Assembly: GCF_016026235.1 (NCBI RefSeq)
Contig: NZ_CP065613.1
DNA length: 64,000 bases
Origin: Escherichia coli
GTDB taxonomy: Bacteria > Pseudomonadota > Gammaproteobacteria > Enterobacterales > Enterobacteriaceae
Direction: 5' to 3' (one strand)
In this document: piece by piece, positions 27,993 through 43,889 of the stretch
Layout: each line of letters begins with the position of its first letter
Position numbering within the stretch: the first letter of the stretch is position 1
Translations under genes and position numbers: made by a program
Notes under the pieces: generated by a model
Told to the model about the DNA's origin: nothing
Seen by the model: only the letters and a program-made list of their open reading frames with translations
The model's database searches: none

Positions 27993-28046
27993 GAACATTT
28001 ATATGTACAAATTTGAGCCTGGCTTATCGCCGGGCTTTTTTATGGC

Positions 28047-28163
28047 AAAAAAAAGCGGATCCTGGAGATCCGCAAAAGTTCACGTTGGCTTTAGTTATTC
28101 GAGTTGAGAAACTCTCGAAACGGGCAGTGACTTCAAGGGTTAAAAGAGGTGCCGCTCCGTTTC
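28047..28163 (-). ncRNA. oxyS: OxyS small regulatory RNA (oxidative stress, OxyR-induced)
   Basis: Minus-strand sequence gaaacggagcggcacctcttttaaccc...gcggatctccaggatccgc followed by a U run matches my recall of oxyS; divergent from oxyR. Confidence 0.8.
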
Positions 28164-30888: not shown

Positions 30889-32055
30889 ATGATCGAACAC
30901 TATATTCGAGGGTTTGAGGAAGAACTGCGTGAGATCCGCCATCAGATCCACGAAAACCCGGAGCTGGGATTACAAGAATTTAAAACCAGTGCTTTGGTTG
31001 CGGAAAAGCTGCGTCAGTGGGGCTATGAAGTAGAGCAAGGACTGGCGACGACGGGGATAGTGGCCACGTTAAAAGTGGGCGACGGAGAGAAAAGTATTGG
31101 CCTGCGGGCGGATATGGATGCGCTGCCGATTTATGAAAATAGTGGCAAGCCCTGGGCCAGTAAACATCCTGGTTTAATGCACGCCTGCGGGCATGACGGG
31201 CATACCACCATACTGCTGGGGGCCGCGCGTTATTTTGCCGAAACCCGCCGTTTTAACGGCACGTTACGTCTTATCTTCCAGCCTGCGGAAGAGATGATTA
31301 ATGGCGGTGAGATCATGGTTAAAGAGGGGCTTTTTGATCATTTCCCCTGCGATGTCATTTTCGGCATGCATAACATGCCCGGTCTGCCGGTGGGTAAGTT
31401 TTATTTCCAGCCAGGGGCACTGATGGCGTCAATGGATCAGTTCCATATTACAGTTCGTGGTTGTGGCGGACACGGTGCGATCCCGCACAAAGCCATCGAT
31501 CCGGTGCTAGTTGCCGCACATATCACCACCGCATTACAAAGCATTGTGTCACGCAATGTCGATCCGCTGGAAGCGGCGGTAATTACCGTCGGCAGCATTG
31601 TTGCGGGTGAGGCGGCTAACGTCATTCCTGACAGTGCTGAGATGAAAATCAGCGTCCGCTCTCTTAGCCGCGATACCCGACAACTTCTTCTGACCCGTAT
31701 TCCTGCTCTGGCACAAGCCCAGGCTGCCAGCTTTGGCGCTACGGCTGAGGTTACGCATGTTAACGGTACACCAGTATTAGTAAATGACGAGGAGATGGCG
31801 CGCTTCGCCTGGCAGGTGGCGTGTAAAACGTTTGGTGAAGATCGGGCCGAGTTTGGCATCAAGCCTCTGATGGGCAGTGAAGATTTCTCTTTCATGCTGG
31901 AAGCCCAACCCAAAGGCGGTTTCCTGTTATTCGGTAATGGCGATGTCGGGGAAGGTTCCTGCATGGTGCATAACCCGGGTTACGACTTCAACGATGCAAG
32001 TCTGGTCCCGGCAAGCAGCTACTGGGGCGCACTGGTAGAAGCCTGGCTGCAATAA
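30889..32055 (+). CDS. M20D-family amidohydrolase (hippurate hydrolase / N-acyl-amino acid amidohydrolase-like)
   Basis: 388 aa ORF with aggaa RBS; HACGHDGH metal-binding motif and overall layout typical of M20D aminoacylases; no gene sits here in K-12 as I recall. Confidence 0.85.
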   Translation: MIEHYIRGFEEELREIRHQIHENPELGLQEFKTSALVAEKLRQWGYEVEQGLATTGIVATLKVGDGEKSIGLRADMDALPIYENSGKPWASKHPGLMHACGHDGHTTILLGAARYFAETRRFNGTLRLIFQPAEEMINGGEIMVKEGLFDHFPCDVIFGMHNMPGLPVGKFYFQPGALMASMDQFHITVRGCGGHGAIPHKAIDPVLVAAHITTALQSIVSRNVDPLEAAVITVGSIVAGEAANVIPDSAEMKISVRSLSRDTRQLLLTRIPALAQAQAASFGATAEVTHVNGTPVLVNDEEMARFAWQVACKTFGEDRAEFGIKPLMGSEDFSFMLEAQPKGGFLLFGNGDVGEGSCMVHNPGYDFNDASLVPASSYWGALVEAWLQ

Positions 32056-32097
32056 ATAAAACAACACACAACAACACTTTTTGGCAAGGAACATGGA

Positions 32098-33414
32098 ATG
32101 ACGGCGATCGTAAATGAAACCGTGAGTGTGAAGAAAAAGCCCAGCGGCAGGCGGGTGATTTTTGCCTCGGCGTTTGGCAATGCGCTCGAATTTTTTGATT
32201 TTGGCGTTTACAACTTTTTTGTGGTCTATATCAGTACACTTTTCTTCCCACCCAGCGCTGATCACAATGTCGCGCTGTTACTGGCATTTGCAACGTTTGG
32301 CGTGAGTTTTTTTATGCGCCCGCTTGGTGGAATTATCGTCGGGGCCTGGGCCGATCGTTTCGGACGCAAACCCGCGATGGTGTTCACTATTGCCCTGATG
32401 AGCCTCGGCACGTTGATGATTGGCATTGCGCCGACGTATGCGACGGCGGGCTATTGGGGAACGGCAACTCTGGTACTTGCTCGTTTGATTCAGGGTGTTG
32501 CAGCAGGCGGTGAAGTTGGGGCTTCAATGTCGCTACTGGTGGAGTCAGCTCCGGCAAATCGTCGCGGTTTTTACAGCAGTTGGTCACTGGCGACTCAAGG
32601 CCTGGCAACAACTTTTGGAGGTGTTGTCGCTTTAGGTTTAAGTGCATGGCTGCCCTTTGCGACCGGTTCAGAAACCGTCATGGCTGAATGGGGCTGGCGT
32701 GTGCCGTTTTTTATTGGCGTGTTATTAGCGCCTGTCGGCTGTTGGTTGCGTTTGAGTCTGGAAAATGATGTTCCTGAGCCAGCACATAATAAGAAGGCCG
32801 CAGCCAGCGAAAGCGCCTTCTCCTTACTTATGCAACATAAAGCGACTATCGCTAACGGTATCTTGCTCGCTATTGGTAGCACGGTCGCAACCTATATCTC
32901 CCTCTTTTATTACGGTACATGGGCGGCGAAGTATTTAGGAATGAACCAAAACTATTCTCATGCAGCGATGTTACTGGCGGGCGTTATTACGTTTGTGGGT
33001 GCGCTGCTGGTGGGGATGTTGTGCGATTCGGTCGGGCGTAAAAAGCTGATTTTAATCTCCCGTGTGATGGTGCTGATCTGTAGCTGGCCGTCATTCTGGC
33101 TGTTGGTGAATTACCCAAGCCCTGGCATGTTGCTGACGGTGGTTTTCGTGATGGTCAGCTTTACCACGCTTGGCGGTGTGCCAGTGATGTTGTTGATCTC
33201 TGAACTGTTGCCGAAACGGATTCGGGCATTGGGTTTTGCGCTGGTTTATAGCATTGGTGTGGCAATCTTTGGCGGTTTTGCTCAATATTTCGCTACGCAA
33301 TCCATCGTGTTGCTGGATAGTTTGACGGCTCCGGCGTGGTATCTGGGTGGAGGCACGTTGCTGTCGATGTTGGCGTTGTTGTACGTAAAAGAACCGGCCA
33401 AAGAATTGCAGTAA
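32098..33414 (+). CDS. MFS transporter, metabolite:H+ symporter (MHS) family
   Basis: 438 aa hydrophobic ORF with the MHS signature [13 protein letters not shown] and ADRFGRK loop motif; 42 bp downstream of the amidohydrolase, same strand. Confidence 0.85.
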
Positions 33415-35667: not shown

Positions 35668-35795
35668 GATGTATCCTGAAAAATTAAAGTACGCGGCGAT
35701 TGTAGGGATTGCTCATCAGATGTCCAGATCTTGATGAATTCCTATTTGTGAGCTACGTCTGGACAGTAACTTGTTACAACCTGTAGCATCCACTT

Positions 35796-35990
35796 GCCGG
35801 TCCTGTGAGTTAATAGGGAATCCAGTGCGAATCTGGAGCTGACGCGCAGCGGTAAGGAAAGGTGCGATGATTGCGTTATGCGGACACTGCCATTCGGTGG
35901 GAAGTCATCATCTCTTAGTATCTTAGATACCCCTCCAAGCCCGAAGACCTGCCGGCCAACGTCGCATCTGGTTCTCATCATCGCGTAATA
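35796..35990 (+). promoter_or_regulatory. Adenosylcobalamin riboswitch in the btuB leader
   Basis: Leader sequence gccggtcctgtgagttaatagggaatccagtgcgaatctggagctgacgcgcagcggtaaggaaaggtgcg...aagcccgaagacctgccggcc matches my recall of the btuB leader and B12 box. Confidence 0.8.
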
Positions 35991-36035: not shown

Positions 36036-37919
36036 ATGATTAAAAAAGCTTCGCTGCTGACGGCGTGTTCTGTCACAGCCTTTTCCGCTTGGGCACAGGA
36101 TACCAGCCCGGATACTCTCGTCGTTACTGCTAACCGTTTTCAGCAGCCAGTAAATACTGTCCTTGCACCTACTGATATTGTTACCCGTGAGGATATTCAA
36201 CGCTGGCAGTCGAAAGACCTCAACGATGTTATGAGTCATCTCCCCGGTGTAAATATCTCTCAAACTGGTGGAATGGGGACGAGTTCTTCTCTGTATGTTC
36301 GTGGCACTGAATCGCGCCATGTTTTAGTGTTGATTGACGGTGTGCCGATGGCTCGTGCCGGTATCGACAATGCAATTGATATTAGCCAGTTCCCGGTATC
36401 ACTTGTACAGCGTGTTGAATATATTCGTGGGCCGCGTTCTGCCGTTTATGGTTCTGGTGCCATCGGAGGTGTGGTGAACATTATTACAATGAGTAATGAT
36501 GAGAAAGCTCAGATCAACGCAGGAATGGGTACAAATGGTTATCAAGCCTATGATGGGGTAATAAATAAACGTTTTGGCGATACGATGGTAACAGCAGCAG
36601 GTGCTTACCAGACGACCAAAGGTTTTAACATTCAGCCTGGCTCACCATACAGTGGTGATAGCGATCGCGATGGATATCGCAACAAACTTTTCTGGGGGGG
36701 GCTGCAGCATAAGTTTAACGATAACTTCTCGGGGTTCTTCCGTGGTTACAGCTACACAGCTAATAATGATTACGACCAGGGCTCGATGTATGGTTCTGCT
36801 ACTGGCAACGAAGAAGCTCAGAATTACAACCAGTCCTGGGATACTGGCCTACGCTATAACTCCGGCATCTATTCGTCTCAGTTAATTGCTAACTATCAAC
36901 GACTCAAGAATTATAACTACACAAATAATCTTGGTCGTTATGCGGGAGATGCCACCCTGGATGACATGGAACAGCGTTATATTCAGTGGGGTAATAGCAT
37001 TGAGGTAGGGCATGGTGCAATTAGCGGCGGGATCGATTGGAAACAGGAAAAACTGACGTCCAGCAGCATTACAAAATCAGATGATTACGAACGCGATACC
37101 ACCGGGTTATACCTGACTGGACAGCAACAGATTTCCAATGTGACTTTGGAAGCTTCTGGCCGAGAAGATCATGATGAACAGTTTGGCTGGCATGGTACCT
37201 GGCAGACAGCTGCTGGCTGGGAGTTTATTGATGGCTACCAGGCAACACTTTCTTACGGTACCAGTTTTCTTTCGCCTTCTCTTGGACAGCAATACGGGGC
37301 TGCTCGCTTTGCTTCAATTTATGGTCCTGGTATTGCAGCCAACCCAAATTTGAAGCCAGAAGAATCTAAACAGTGGGAGATTGGAATTGAGGGGGTAACT
37401 GGGACTCTGGATTGGCGGCTCTCAGGATATCGTTATGAAATTCAAAACCTGATTGATTATAAAAGCATAAATAATGTCAACCAGTACATTAATGTGAAAT
37501 CAGCCACGATTAAAGGGCTGGAATGGACGGGAAATATTACAACCGGTCCTGTTGAACATCGCTTGACGTTACAATATGTTGACCCGCGCGATGATGAAAC
37601 AGATAAAGTGCTGTACCGTCGGGCAAAACAGCAGGTTAAGTACGAGTTGACTGGACAAGCTTATGGTTTCGAATGGGACGTTTCTTACCAATATATAGGT
37701 CAACGATACGACAACGCTTATGACGAGACCTCTGGCTCATCACATACAGTTAAATTAGGCGGTGTGAGCTTGTGGGATCTTGCGGTTGCATATCCGGTCA
37801 CCTCTCACCTGACAGTTCGTGGTAAAATAGCCAACCTGTTCGACAAAGATTATGAGACAGTCTATGGCTACCAAACTGCAGGACGGGAATACACCTTGTC
37901 TGGCAGCTACACCTTCTGA
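36036..37919 (+). CDS. btuB: TonB-dependent outer membrane vitamin B12 receptor; divergent mosaic allele
   Basis: ORF 35991..37919, trimmed to the ATG giving MIKKASLLTA; signal peptide, TonB box DTLVVTANR and the last 53 aa match my recall of K-12 BtuB, but the central region is strongly divergent and the protein is 627 aa against 614 aa. Confidence 0.85.
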   Translation: MIKKASLLTACSVTAFSAWAQDTSPDTLVVTANRFQQPVNTVLAPTDIVTREDIQRWQSKDLNDVMSHLPGVNISQTGGMGTSSSLYVRGTESRHVLVLIDGVPMARAGIDNAIDISQFPVSLVQRVEYIRGPRSAVYGSGAIGGVVNIITMSNDEKAQINAGMGTNGYQAYDGVINKRFGDTMVTAAGAYQTTKGFNIQPGSPYSGDSDRDGYRNKLFWGGLQHKFNDNFSGFFRGYSYTANNDYDQGSMYGSATGNEEAQNYNQSWDTGLRYNSGIYSSQLIANYQRLKNYNYTNNLGRYAGDATLDDMEQRYIQWGNSIEVGHGAISGGIDWKQEKLTSSSITKSDDYERDTTGLYLTGQQQISNVTLEASGREDHDEQFGWHGTWQTAAGWEFIDGYQATLSYGTSFLSPSLGQQYGAARFASIYGPGIAANPNLKPEESKQWEIGIEGVTGTLDWRLSGYRYEIQNLIDYKSINNVNQYINVKSATIKGLEWTGNITTGPVEHRLTLQYVDPRDDETDKVLYRRAKQQVKYELTGQAYGFEWDVSYQYIGQRYDNAYDETSGSSHTVKLGGVSLWDLAVAYPVTSHLTVRGKIANLFDKDYETVYGYQTAGREYTLSGSYTF

Positions 37920-38721
37920 ACCACGTCCCACCGTGCTGGTGTTTGACTCCGGCGTCGGTGGGTTGTCGGTCTATGACGAGATCCGGCATCTCTTACCGGA
38001 TCTCCATTACATTTATGCTTTCGATAACGTCGCTTTCCCGTATGGCGAAAAAAGCGAAGCGTTTATTGTTGAGCGAGTGGTGGCAATTGTCACCGCGGTG
38101 CAAGAACGTTATCCCCTTGCGCTGGCTGTGGTCGCTTGCAACACTGCCAGTACCGTTTCACTTCCTGCATTACGCGAAAAGTTCGACTTCCCGGTTGTTG
38201 GTGTCGTGCCGGCGATTAAACCTGCTGCACGTCTGACGGCAAATGGCATTGTCGGATTACTGGCAACCCGCGGAACAGTTAAACGTTCTTATACTCATGA
38301 GCTGATCGCGCGTTTCGCTAATGAATGCCAGATAGAAATGCTGGGCTCGGCAGAGATGGTTGAGTTGGCTGAAGCGAAGCTGCATGGCGAAGATGTTTCT
38401 CTGGATGCACTAAAACGTATCCTACGCCCGTGGTTAAGAATGAAAGAGCCGCCAGATACCGTTGTATTGGGTTGCACCCATTTCCCTCTACTACAAGAAG
38501 AACTGTTACAAGTGCTGCCAGAGGGAACCCGGCTGGTGGATTCTGGCGCAGCGATTGCTCGCCGAACGGCCTGGTTGTTAGAACATGAAGCCCCGGATGC
38601 AAAATCTGCCGATGCGAATATTGCCTTTTGTATGGCAATGACGCCAGAAGCTGAACAATTATTGCCCGTCTTACAGCGTTACGGCTTCGAAACGCTCGAA
38701 AAACTGGCAGTTTTAGGCTGA
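37864..38721 (+). CDS. murI: Glutamate racemase
   Basis: ORF 37852..38721, trimmed to the ATG giving MATKLQDGNT and the 285 aa K-12 length; overlaps the btuB 3' end. Confidence 0.92.
   Translation: MATKLQDGNTPCLAATPSEPRPTVLVFDSGVGGLSVYDEIRHLLPDLHYIYAFDNVAFPYGEKSEAFIVERVVAIVTAVQERYPLALAVVACNTASTVSLPALREKFDFPVVGVVPAIKPAARLTANGIVGLLATRGTVKRSYTHELIARFANECQIEMLGSAEMVELAEAKLHGEDVSLDALKRILRPWLRMKEPPDTVVLGCTHFPLLQEELLQVLPEGTRLVDSGAAIARRTAWLLEHEAPDAKSADANIAFCMAMTPEAEQLLPVLQRYGFETLEKLAVLG

Positions 38722-39094: not shown

Positions 39095-40635
<1,541 letters not shown>

Positions 40636-40989: not shown

Positions 40990-43889
<2,900 letters not shown>

What the first reader, a model, noticed from the sequence alone, without database searches (positions are those of the whole stretch)
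36694..36701. G8 homopolymer inside the btuB coding sequence
Eight consecutive G residues (36694..36701, codons tgg-ggg-ggg giving W-G-G) lie within the divergent part of btuB. Tracts of this length are prone to slipped-strand mispairing, so a +1 or -1 slip would truncate the receptor. That could act as a reversible on/off switch for a phage and colicin receptor, which would be unusual for E. coli core genes. It is also a typical site for sequencing or assembly error.
Basis: seen in the sequence. Interest (0 to 1): 0.4.

Follow-up and report, generated by a model that had tools for sequence, protein, structure and literature searches.

The report
G8 run in mosaic btuB gene
A run of eight G's does sit inside the vitamin B12, phage and colicin receptor gene btuB of this E. 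coli, but in public genomes it is almost always eight long and varies no more than a control run, so it looks like an ordinary slip-prone spot and not an evolved on/off switch.

Summary
G8 lies at 36694-36701 as TGG GGG GGG (W-G-G), in frame in an intact btuB, and it is the only G/C run of 7 or more in the window. The window is E. coli FDAARGOS_943. Its btuB is a mosaic allele: about 1.65 kb is only about 60% identical to K-12. 282 of 5426 complete E. coli genomes carry this allele.

The W-G-G motif is conserved in the nearest orthologues (Citrobacter, Kluyvera), but they use GGC, GGT or GGA. The run is therefore a matter of codon choice.

Among the 282 carriers, 11 assemblies have G7 (annotated as frameshifted) and none has G9. 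A control C8 run in tRNA-Leu leuT gives the same picture: 3.7% C7 and 0.33% C9 among 5376 genomes, including laboratory K-12 derivatives, and three of the btuB-G7 assemblies are among them. The G7 calls are therefore explained by long-read under-calling.

Draft assemblies contain a few G7 and G9 products on several haplotypes. These amount to at most 4% of carrier contigs, and probably far fewer. All six metagenome contigs are G8.

Published mutation-accumulation data give about 1e-4 slips per generation for such a run without mismatch repair. I infer about 1e-6 with repair. The run is a real mutational hot spot, but the switch idea is unsupported.

The parts
36694..36701 (+). G8 homopolymer (C8 on the minus strand)
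   Evidence: Read directly. It is the only G/C run of 7 or more in the window.
36693..36701 (+). Codons TGG GGG GGG, giving W220-G221-G222 of the BtuB precursor. They align with Y203-G204-A205 of mature K-12 BtuB.
   Evidence: Translation and alignment to PDB BtuB chains 3rgm/1nqe. W-G-G/S/A is conserved in orthologues, but with GGC, GGT or GGA codons.
36036..37919 (+). btuB coding sequence (627 aa), intact
   Evidence: NCBIfam NF007926 BtuB equivalog, 1042 bits over the full length. RefSeq annotates it as intact in the source genome NZ_CP065615.1.
36100..37763 (+). Divergent (mosaic) segment of btuB. It is about 60% identical in nucleotides to K-12, while both flanks are 99-100% identical. 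GC content is 45.9%.
   Evidence: 60-nt sliding identity against MG1655. Protein identity to K-12 BtuB is 57%. The closest species representatives are Citrobacter and Kluyvera at 82-87% aa.
36883..36885 (+). TAA stop reached after a -1 slip (G7), giving a 282-aa product. The shifted frame is that of ORF 36601-36885.
36710..36712 (+). TAA stop reached after a +1 slip (G9), giving a 225-aa product that ends ...FWGGAAA.
   Evidence: This exact product is found in draft assemblies.
35781..35970 (+). Cobalamin riboswitch in the btuB leader (the known regulator of btuB expression)
   Evidence: RefSeq annotation of the source record, mapped to window coordinates. The same feature is annotated in other carriers.
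37864..38721 (+). murI (glutamate racemase). It overlaps the 3' end of btuB by 56 nt and lies downstream of any premature stop.
   Evidence: RefSeq annotation and ORF list.

Best explanation
The G8 run is an incidental result of codon choice. A conserved Trp-Gly-Gly motif in a barrel strand of BtuB happens to be written TGG GGG GGG in one horizontally spread, mosaic btuB allele of E. coli. G8 is the functional, in-frame state and is stably inherited. Like any 8-bp G·C run it is a local hot spot for slipped-strand mispairing. A -1 slip gives a 282-aa product and a +1 slip gives a 225-aa product. Either truncation would remove most of the barrel and so abolish B12 uptake and BtuB-dependent phage and colicin entry. 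A second slip can restore the frame. In mismatch-repair-proficient cells this should happen at roughly 1e-6 per generation (inferred). That raises the supply of btuB-null mutants somewhat, but it does not act as an evolved switch. Most G7 versions in public complete genomes are long-read homopolymer under-calls.

Shown here: the tract, the reading frame, the truncated products, the allele distribution, the equality with the control run, and the lack of conservation of the tract. Inferred: the slip rate in wild-type cells, the null phenotype, and the absence of selection for mutability.
For: 1. The tract is in frame in an intact, full-length BtuB.
2. 282 of 5426 complete genomes carry the allele at 99% identity or more. 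271 do not match the exact G7 probe, 11 are exact G7, and 0 are G9.
3. A control 8-G·C run in tRNA-Leu leuT gives 5098 exact C8, 200 C7 (3.7%) and 18 C9 (0.33%). This is the same rate and the same deletion bias as at btuB (Fisher p = 0.87). The C7 list includes laboratory strains DH5alpha, K-12 DHB4 and B C3029, although MG1655 is C8. It also includes three of the eleven btuB-G7 assemblies, N3, 2014C-3338 and SLK172, among only 60 rows listed (P = 0.007).
4. G7 assembly 14EC047 has five further homopolymer deletions in rrnB, and N3 has one.
5. The W-G-G motif is conserved in 40 or more Enterobacteriaceae orthologues, but the G run there is usually 4. It is 6 in two Kluyvera and 7 in one Citrobacter. 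It reaches 8 only in the E. coli allele.
6. 5.3% of synonymous shuffles of this gene produce such a run.
7. All six metagenome contigs with the allele are G8.
8. Rate: 95 indels were recovered in four 8-G·C runs over about 250,000 generations in MMR-defective E. coli, which is about 1e-4 per run per generation (PMC8510543).
9. No IS insertion or other length change was seen in the divergent segment among the carriers.
Against: Exact G7 and G9 truncated products do occur in draft and run-level assemblies: 26 and 33 contigs. The G9 contigs are 10-200 kb, which is typical of short-read isolate assemblies, and they carry no other indels. G7, G8 and G9 occur on the same SNP haplotype. G7 is seen on at least 7 haplotype backgrounds and G9 on at least 3. 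Recurrent real slips in both directions are therefore likely, and 17 of the 24 G9 contigs that were read have similar neighbourhoods and may be one lineage with an inherited null allele. AR_0017 and 14EC047 are G7 at btuB but correct (C8) at leuT, so not every G7 is proven to be technical. Consensus assemblies cannot detect within-culture switching below about 10%.
Confidence: 0.75

Rival explanations
1. The tract is a genuine contingency locus. It is kept because reversible G8 to G7/G9 slippage lets a lineage hedge between B12 and ethanolamine use (ON) and resistance to BtuB-dependent phages and E-type colicins (OFF). This would resemble the poly-G tracts in Neisseria TonB-dependent receptors.
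For: The tract sits in the coding region of a phage and colicin receptor. Both frameshift products exist in public assemblies on several haplotypes, and G7, G8 and G9 occur on one haplotype. All 11 frameshifts detected in the allele among complete genomes are at the tract, and no IS insertions were found. The tract is retained in a 97%-identical E. coli relative, L005. In repair-deficient cells the rate would be about 1e-4 per generation. There is a precedent in HmbR, whose poly-G tract also encodes glycines (PMC3068627).
Against: The OFF frequency in complete genomes equals that of a control run in a tRNA gene and shows the same deletion bias. No complete genome is G9. All six metagenome contigs are G8. 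The tract is not conserved in orthologues that keep W-G-G. The run is 8, at the low end for phase variation, in a species with active mismatch repair. No literature on it was found. The allele is so uniform (99% or more) that retention of the tract says nothing about selection.
Confidence: 0.1
2. The G8 in this window is itself an assembly error. The true tract in FDAARGOS_943 would be G9 or G7, and btuB would be a pseudogene in this strain.
For: The source assembly has G runs one base short in rrnB at three places compared with K-12 and four other genomes: G4 instead of G5 in 16S, and G5 instead of G6 at two sites in 23S. 8-bp G·C runs are miscalled in about 4% of complete genomes.
Against: G8 keeps a 627-aa BtuB in frame. 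It matches about 271 other complete genomes and six metagenome contigs. The exact protein occurs on 1000 or more contigs. The rrn errors lie in a seven-copy repeat, where polishing is weakest, and need not reflect unique regions.
Confidence: 0.03
3. The run acts at the RNA level. Either G GGG GGG is a -1 ribosomal slippery heptamer, or RNA polymerase slips on it, so that a programmed truncated plug-domain product is made or frameshifted alleles are partly rescued.
For: G GGG GGG formally fits the X XXY YYZ pattern in the right register. The -1 frame ends three codons later and would give a 225-aa product.
Against: The 100 nt downstream fold no better than shuffled sequence (z = 0.22). All-G heptamers and G runs are poor slippery sites in E. 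coli (general knowledge, not tested here). Orthologues lack the heptamer. The truncated product has no evident function.
Confidence: 0.01

Closest known systems
Poly-G tract in Neisseria meningitidis hmbR (and hpuAB), which encode phase-variable TonB-dependent receptors
   Same: The tract is a homopolymeric G run inside the coding region of a 22-strand TonB-dependent outer-membrane receptor. It encodes glycines, and a change of one base shifts the frame (PMC3068627).
   Different: In Neisseria the tract length differs widely between isolates, and ON and OFF states are both common. Here G8 is essentially fixed, variation equals that of a control run, and the tract is absent from orthologues.
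8-bp G·C runs in E. coli leuP/Q/V/T tRNA genes, documented indel hot spots
   Same: Same length and base composition in the same species. 95 indels were recovered in four such runs over about 250,000 generations in repair-defective lines, and indel rate rises exponentially with run length (PMC8510543).
   Different: Those runs are in multicopy tRNA genes and form a stem. This one is in a single-copy protein-coding gene, where a slip gives a selectable null phenotype.
Long-read (PacBio or Nanopore) homopolymer under-calling in finished genomes
   Same: There is a -1 bias. About 4% of complete E. coli genomes are one base short at an 8-bp G·C run, and the same assemblies are affected at both sites.
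   Different: This explains the G7 records. It does not explain the existence of the G8 run or the G9 products in short-read-like drafts.
Campylobacter, Haemophilus and Helicobacter poly-G/C contingency genes that switch phage receptors or surface structures (recalled from general knowledge, not tested here)
   Same: Frameshifting at a G/C homopolymer gives reversible loss of a surface structure used by phages.
   Different: Those species lack or have weak mismatch repair, carry many tracts of G9 or longer, and show high measured switching rates. E. coli has MutSLH, and this is a single G8.

Membership tests
BtuB (TonB-dependent vitamin B12 receptor) | Full-length match to the curated equivalog model, above its cut-off | tested here: met
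   NF007926 scores 1042 bits against a cut-off of 836 over residues 1-627. TIGR01779 scores 665 bits against 600. E = 2e-209 to solved BtuB structures.
BtuB (TonB-dependent vitamin B12 receptor) | Conserved locus: cobalamin riboswitch leader, trmA upstream, murI overlapping downstream | tested here: met
Slipped-strand (simple-sequence-repeat) phase-variable contingency locus | A repeat tract in the coding region or promoter whose length change switches expression | tested here: met
   G8 lies in the coding region. G7 gives a 282-aa product and G9 a 225-aa product.
Slipped-strand (simple-sequence-repeat) phase-variable contingency locus | Tract length polymorphic between or within strains, with ON and OFF lengths both frequent and above technical noise | tested here: not met
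   The 282 complete genomes include 11 G7 and 0 G9. This is indistinguishable from the leuT control run (3.7% C7, 0.33% C9; p = 0.87). All 6 metagenome contigs are G8. Rare G7/G9 in drafts amount to at most 4% of counted contigs, with the denominator capped. Within-strain heterogeneity could not be tested.
Slipped-strand (simple-sequence-repeat) phase-variable contingency locus | Switching rate well above the background mutation rate (usually 1e-5 per generation or more) and reversible | not testable with these tools
   Only an inference is possible. Equivalent runs change at about 1e-4 per generation in repair-defective E. coli. I infer about 1e-6 with repair, from general knowledge of the size of the repair effect.
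Slipped-strand (simple-sequence-repeat) phase-variable contingency locus | Tract maintained by selection (conserved at the nucleotide level despite synonymous alternatives) | tested here: not met
   Orthologues keep W-G-G but use GGC, GGT or GGA, so the G run is mostly 4. Within E. coli the allele is too uniform to be informative.
Programmed -1 ribosomal frameshift site | Slippery heptamer plus a downstream stimulatory structure, conserved | tested here: not met
   The heptamer G GGG GGG is present, but the downstream fold has z = 0.22 and orthologues lack the heptamer.

The most novel reading that the evidence does not exclude
The G8 tract in this imported btuB allele is a working, low-rate contingency switch in E. 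coli. It would matter especially in naturally occurring mismatch-repair-deficient or stressed populations, where about 1e-4 slips per generation would continually seed and revert BtuB-null cells that resist BtuB-dependent phages and E-type colicins. This would be slipped-strand phase variation of a core outer-membrane receptor in a species where it is thought to be rare.
Probability: 0.08. Interest if true: 0.5.

Novelty: new member of a known kind. Interest (0 to 1): 0.2.

Why it matters
If the tract were a true switch, about 5% of E. coli strains would carry a built-in, reversible route to resistance against BtuB-dependent phages and E colicins. These strains include EPEC E2348/69 and several ETEC and livestock lineages. 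That would be relevant to phage therapy and to colicin ecology.

What the evidence supports is more modest. The run is a slip-prone site that somewhat raises the supply of btuB-null mutants.

There is also a practical warning. About 4% of finished E. coli genomes are one base short at 8-bp G·C runs, so 'frameshifted btuB' annotations in this allele should not be taken as biology without read-level support.

Tried and rejected
1. Local pseudogene density as an error test. In four G7 genomes btuB is the only frameshifted CDS within 20 kb on either side. This is uninformative, because no other long G/C run lies in that stretch.
2. Indels in rrnB as an error marker. This flagged 14EC047 and N3 but not 2014C-3338 or AR_0017, and it also revealed errors in the window itself. 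It is only a partial test, because rrn repeats are poorly polished.
3. Fetching leuT from every G7 genome. The btuB-leuT distance varies from 181 to 214 kb. I did this for two genomes only, and both were C8.
4. Literature searches for a btuB homopolymer, btuB phase variation or a mosaic btuB allele. Nothing specific was found.
5. Ribosomal frameshift stimulator: rejected.
6. A direct donor for the divergent segment. No species representative is closer than 87% aa, so the donor remains unknown.
7. A first Markov simulation timed out and was rerun.
8. The sequencing platform of the SRA/ENA runs with G7 or G9 could not be looked up offline. The reality of those variants is therefore unresolved.

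Full report
**Observation.** The window reads ...AAACTTTTCTGGGGGGGGCTGCAGCAT... with eight G's at 36694-36701. They fall in the ORF that starts at ATG 36036 and ends at 37919, and the codons are TGG GGG GGG CTG, giving W220-G221-G222-L. The ORF is BtuB by the curated NCBIfam equivalog (1042 bits against a cut-off of 836, full length). It aligns end to end with solved BtuB structures, where W-G-G corresponds to Y203-G204-A205 of the mature K-12 protein. The run is the only G or C run of 7 or more in the 64 kb.

On base composition alone this is not remarkable. A first-order Markov model expects 0.78 G/C runs of 8 or more per window, and 54% of simulations have at least one. The real sequence is nevertheless depleted in long G/C runs (6 of length 6 or more against 16.4 expected), and only 5.3% of synonymous-codon shuffles of this gene create such a run. 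Nothing is encoded on the opposite strand at this position.

**Where the window comes from and what kind of btuB this is.** A 13-kb stretch around the gene matches one record at 100%, E. coli FDAARGOS_943 (NZ_CP065615.1). The next best match is 99.0%. RefSeq annotates btuB as intact there, with the cobalamin riboswitch at window 35781-35970 and murI overlapping the 3' end.

Compared with MG1655, the flanks (trmA, the leader, the first 70 or so nt of btuB, its last 150 or so nt, and murI) are 99-100% identical. Window 36100-37763 is only about 60% identical and contains indels. The proteins are 57% identical, and the divergent segment has lower GC content (45.9%).

The allele is present at 99% identity or more in 282 of 5426 complete E. 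coli genomes, always on the chromosome. The carriers come from humans, pigs, poultry, cattle, frogs and water, and they include E2348/69, UMNK88 and O169:H41 ETEC. The closest species representatives are Citrobacter (86-87% aa), Kluyvera (82-86%) and Klebsiella spallanzanii (84%). No direct donor was found.

**Is the tract conserved?** In about 45 orthologues the amino-acid motif F-W-G-G/S/A is conserved, but the glycines are written GGC, GGT or GGA. The G run is 4 in most, 6 in two Kluyvera and 7 in one Citrobacter. It reaches 8 only in the E. coli allele, including a 97%-identical E. coli genome. K-12 btuB has no run longer than 6. The tract is therefore a lineage-specific accident of codon choice on a conserved motif.

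**Does its length vary?** I probed the complete genomes with G7 and G9 versions of a 200-nt stretch. Eleven genomes match G7 exactly and none matches G9. In every G7 genome whose annotation was fetched (six of the eleven), PGAP marks btuB 'frameshifted'. No IS insertions or other length changes were seen in the divergent segment. On its face, 3.9% OFF alleles, all at the tract, looks like support for a switch.

**The control shows otherwise.** E. coli tRNA-Leu leuT contains a C8 run. Probing it in the same way gives 5098 genomes with C8, 200 with C7 (3.7%) and 18 with C9 (0.33%). The btuB figures (11 of 282 and 0 of 282) are statistically indistinguishable from these (Fisher p = 0.87 and 1.0).

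The C7 list contains laboratory strains (DH5alpha, K-12 DHB4, B C3029) although MG1655 is C8, and it contains many assemblies from the same sequencing series. That points to a technical -1 under-call. Three of the eleven btuB-G7 assemblies (N3, 2014C-3338, SLK172) appear among the 60 C7 rows that were listed (P = 0.007 for three or more by chance). 14EC047 carries five further homopolymer deletions in rrnB, and N3 carries one. AR_0017 and 14EC047 are correct at leuT, so a few G7 calls could still be real.

The window's own assembly is one G short at three rrnB runs compared with K-12 and four other genomes. At btuB, however, its G8 is in frame and agrees with all the other carriers.

**Draft and run-level assemblies.** The G7 product (282 aa) is on 26 contigs and the G9 product (225 aa) on 33. 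The G9 contigs are 10-200 kb and have no other indels. The G7 contigs are mostly under 5 kb, and two of the ten carry extra indels.

SNP haplotypes show G7, G8 and G9 on one background, G7 on at least seven backgrounds and G9 on at least three. Some real slips in both directions therefore probably occur, but they make up at most 4% of counted contigs, and probably far fewer. A pattern scan of metagenome contigs that allowed G6-G11 found six contigs, all G8.

**Mechanism and rate.** A -1 slip reads into the frame of ORF 36601-36885 and stops at 36883-36885. A +1 slip stops at 36710-36712. Either product keeps the plug and only the first few barrel strands, so loss of function is expected (inference).

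Published mutation-accumulation data for repair-defective E. coli report 95 indels in four 8-G·C runs over about 250,000 generations, which is about 1e-4 per run per generation, and an exponential dependence of indel rate on run length (PMC8510543). Mismatch repair lowers indel rates by roughly two orders of magnitude (my recollection, not checked here). The wild-type rate should therefore be near 1e-6. That is enough to make the tract a noticeable contributor to btuB-null mutants, but it is below classical phase variation.

RNA-level readings have no support. The downstream RNA folds no better than shuffled sequence (z = 0.22).

**Comparison with known systems.** The nearest formal analogue is the poly-G tract in Neisseria hmbR. 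It also lies in a TonB-dependent receptor and also encodes glycines (PMC3068627). The defining population behaviour of such loci was tested here and not met. My literature searches found no description of this btuB tract.

**Verdict.** It is best explained as an incidental slip-prone run in a mosaic btuB allele. The apparent OFF alleles in finished genomes are mostly sequencing artefacts. A low-rate switch is not excluded (about 8-10%), but nothing requires it.

Noticed in passing
window 36100-37763: btuB is a sharp-edged mosaic. A 1.65-kb internal segment is only about 60% identical to K-12, with lower GC (45.9%), between flanks that are 99-100% identical. The segment is 99% or more identical in 282 of 5426 complete E. 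coli genomes from very different hosts and flanking haplotypes. Its nearest relatives are Citrobacter and Kluyvera BtuB at 82-87% aa, and no donor was identified. This receptor replacement is probably the more interesting biology at this locus, since it could allow escape from phages or colicins.
   Followed up: partly
window 39294-39297 (16S), 42408-42412 and 43626-43630 (23S): Three G runs in rrnB are one base shorter in the window (G4, G5, G5) than in K-12 MG1655 and four other genomes (G5, G6, G6). These are probably homopolymer under-calls left in the FDAARGOS_943 assembly inside the rRNA repeat.
   Followed up: partly
L075 478-485 (K-12 leuT), not in the window: The C8 run of tRNA-Leu leuT is recorded as C7 in 200 and as C9 in 18 of 5376 complete E. 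coli genomes, including laboratory K-12 and B derivatives. This gives a general estimate (about 4%, biased towards deletions) of how often finished genomes miscall 8-bp G·C runs.
   Followed up: yes
window 30889-33414: An M20 aminoacylase gene and a citrate-proton symporter gene lie between sthA and fabR. They are absent at this position in K-12 MG1655 and in 14EC047, N3 and 2014C-3338, and present in AR_0017.
   Followed up: no
window 27993-28054: An A8 run (28047-28054) sits at a homology break in the argH-oxyR intergenic region. Some other strains (N3, 2014C-3338, AR_0017) carry manD plus an MFS transporter gene there.
   Followed up: no
window 36293 and 37445: Both are third-codon positions at which the window differs from all 22 other carriers compared (G>T and A>G in them). 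They are private variants of this strain.
   Followed up: no
L059-L063 (G9 contigs from SRR7874659, SRR30408943, GCA_022972275.1, SRR23049497, GCA_054662995.1): 17 of the 24 G9 contigs that were read have the same neighbourhood as L059. They may represent one lineage with an inherited +1 btuB null allele.
   Followed up: no
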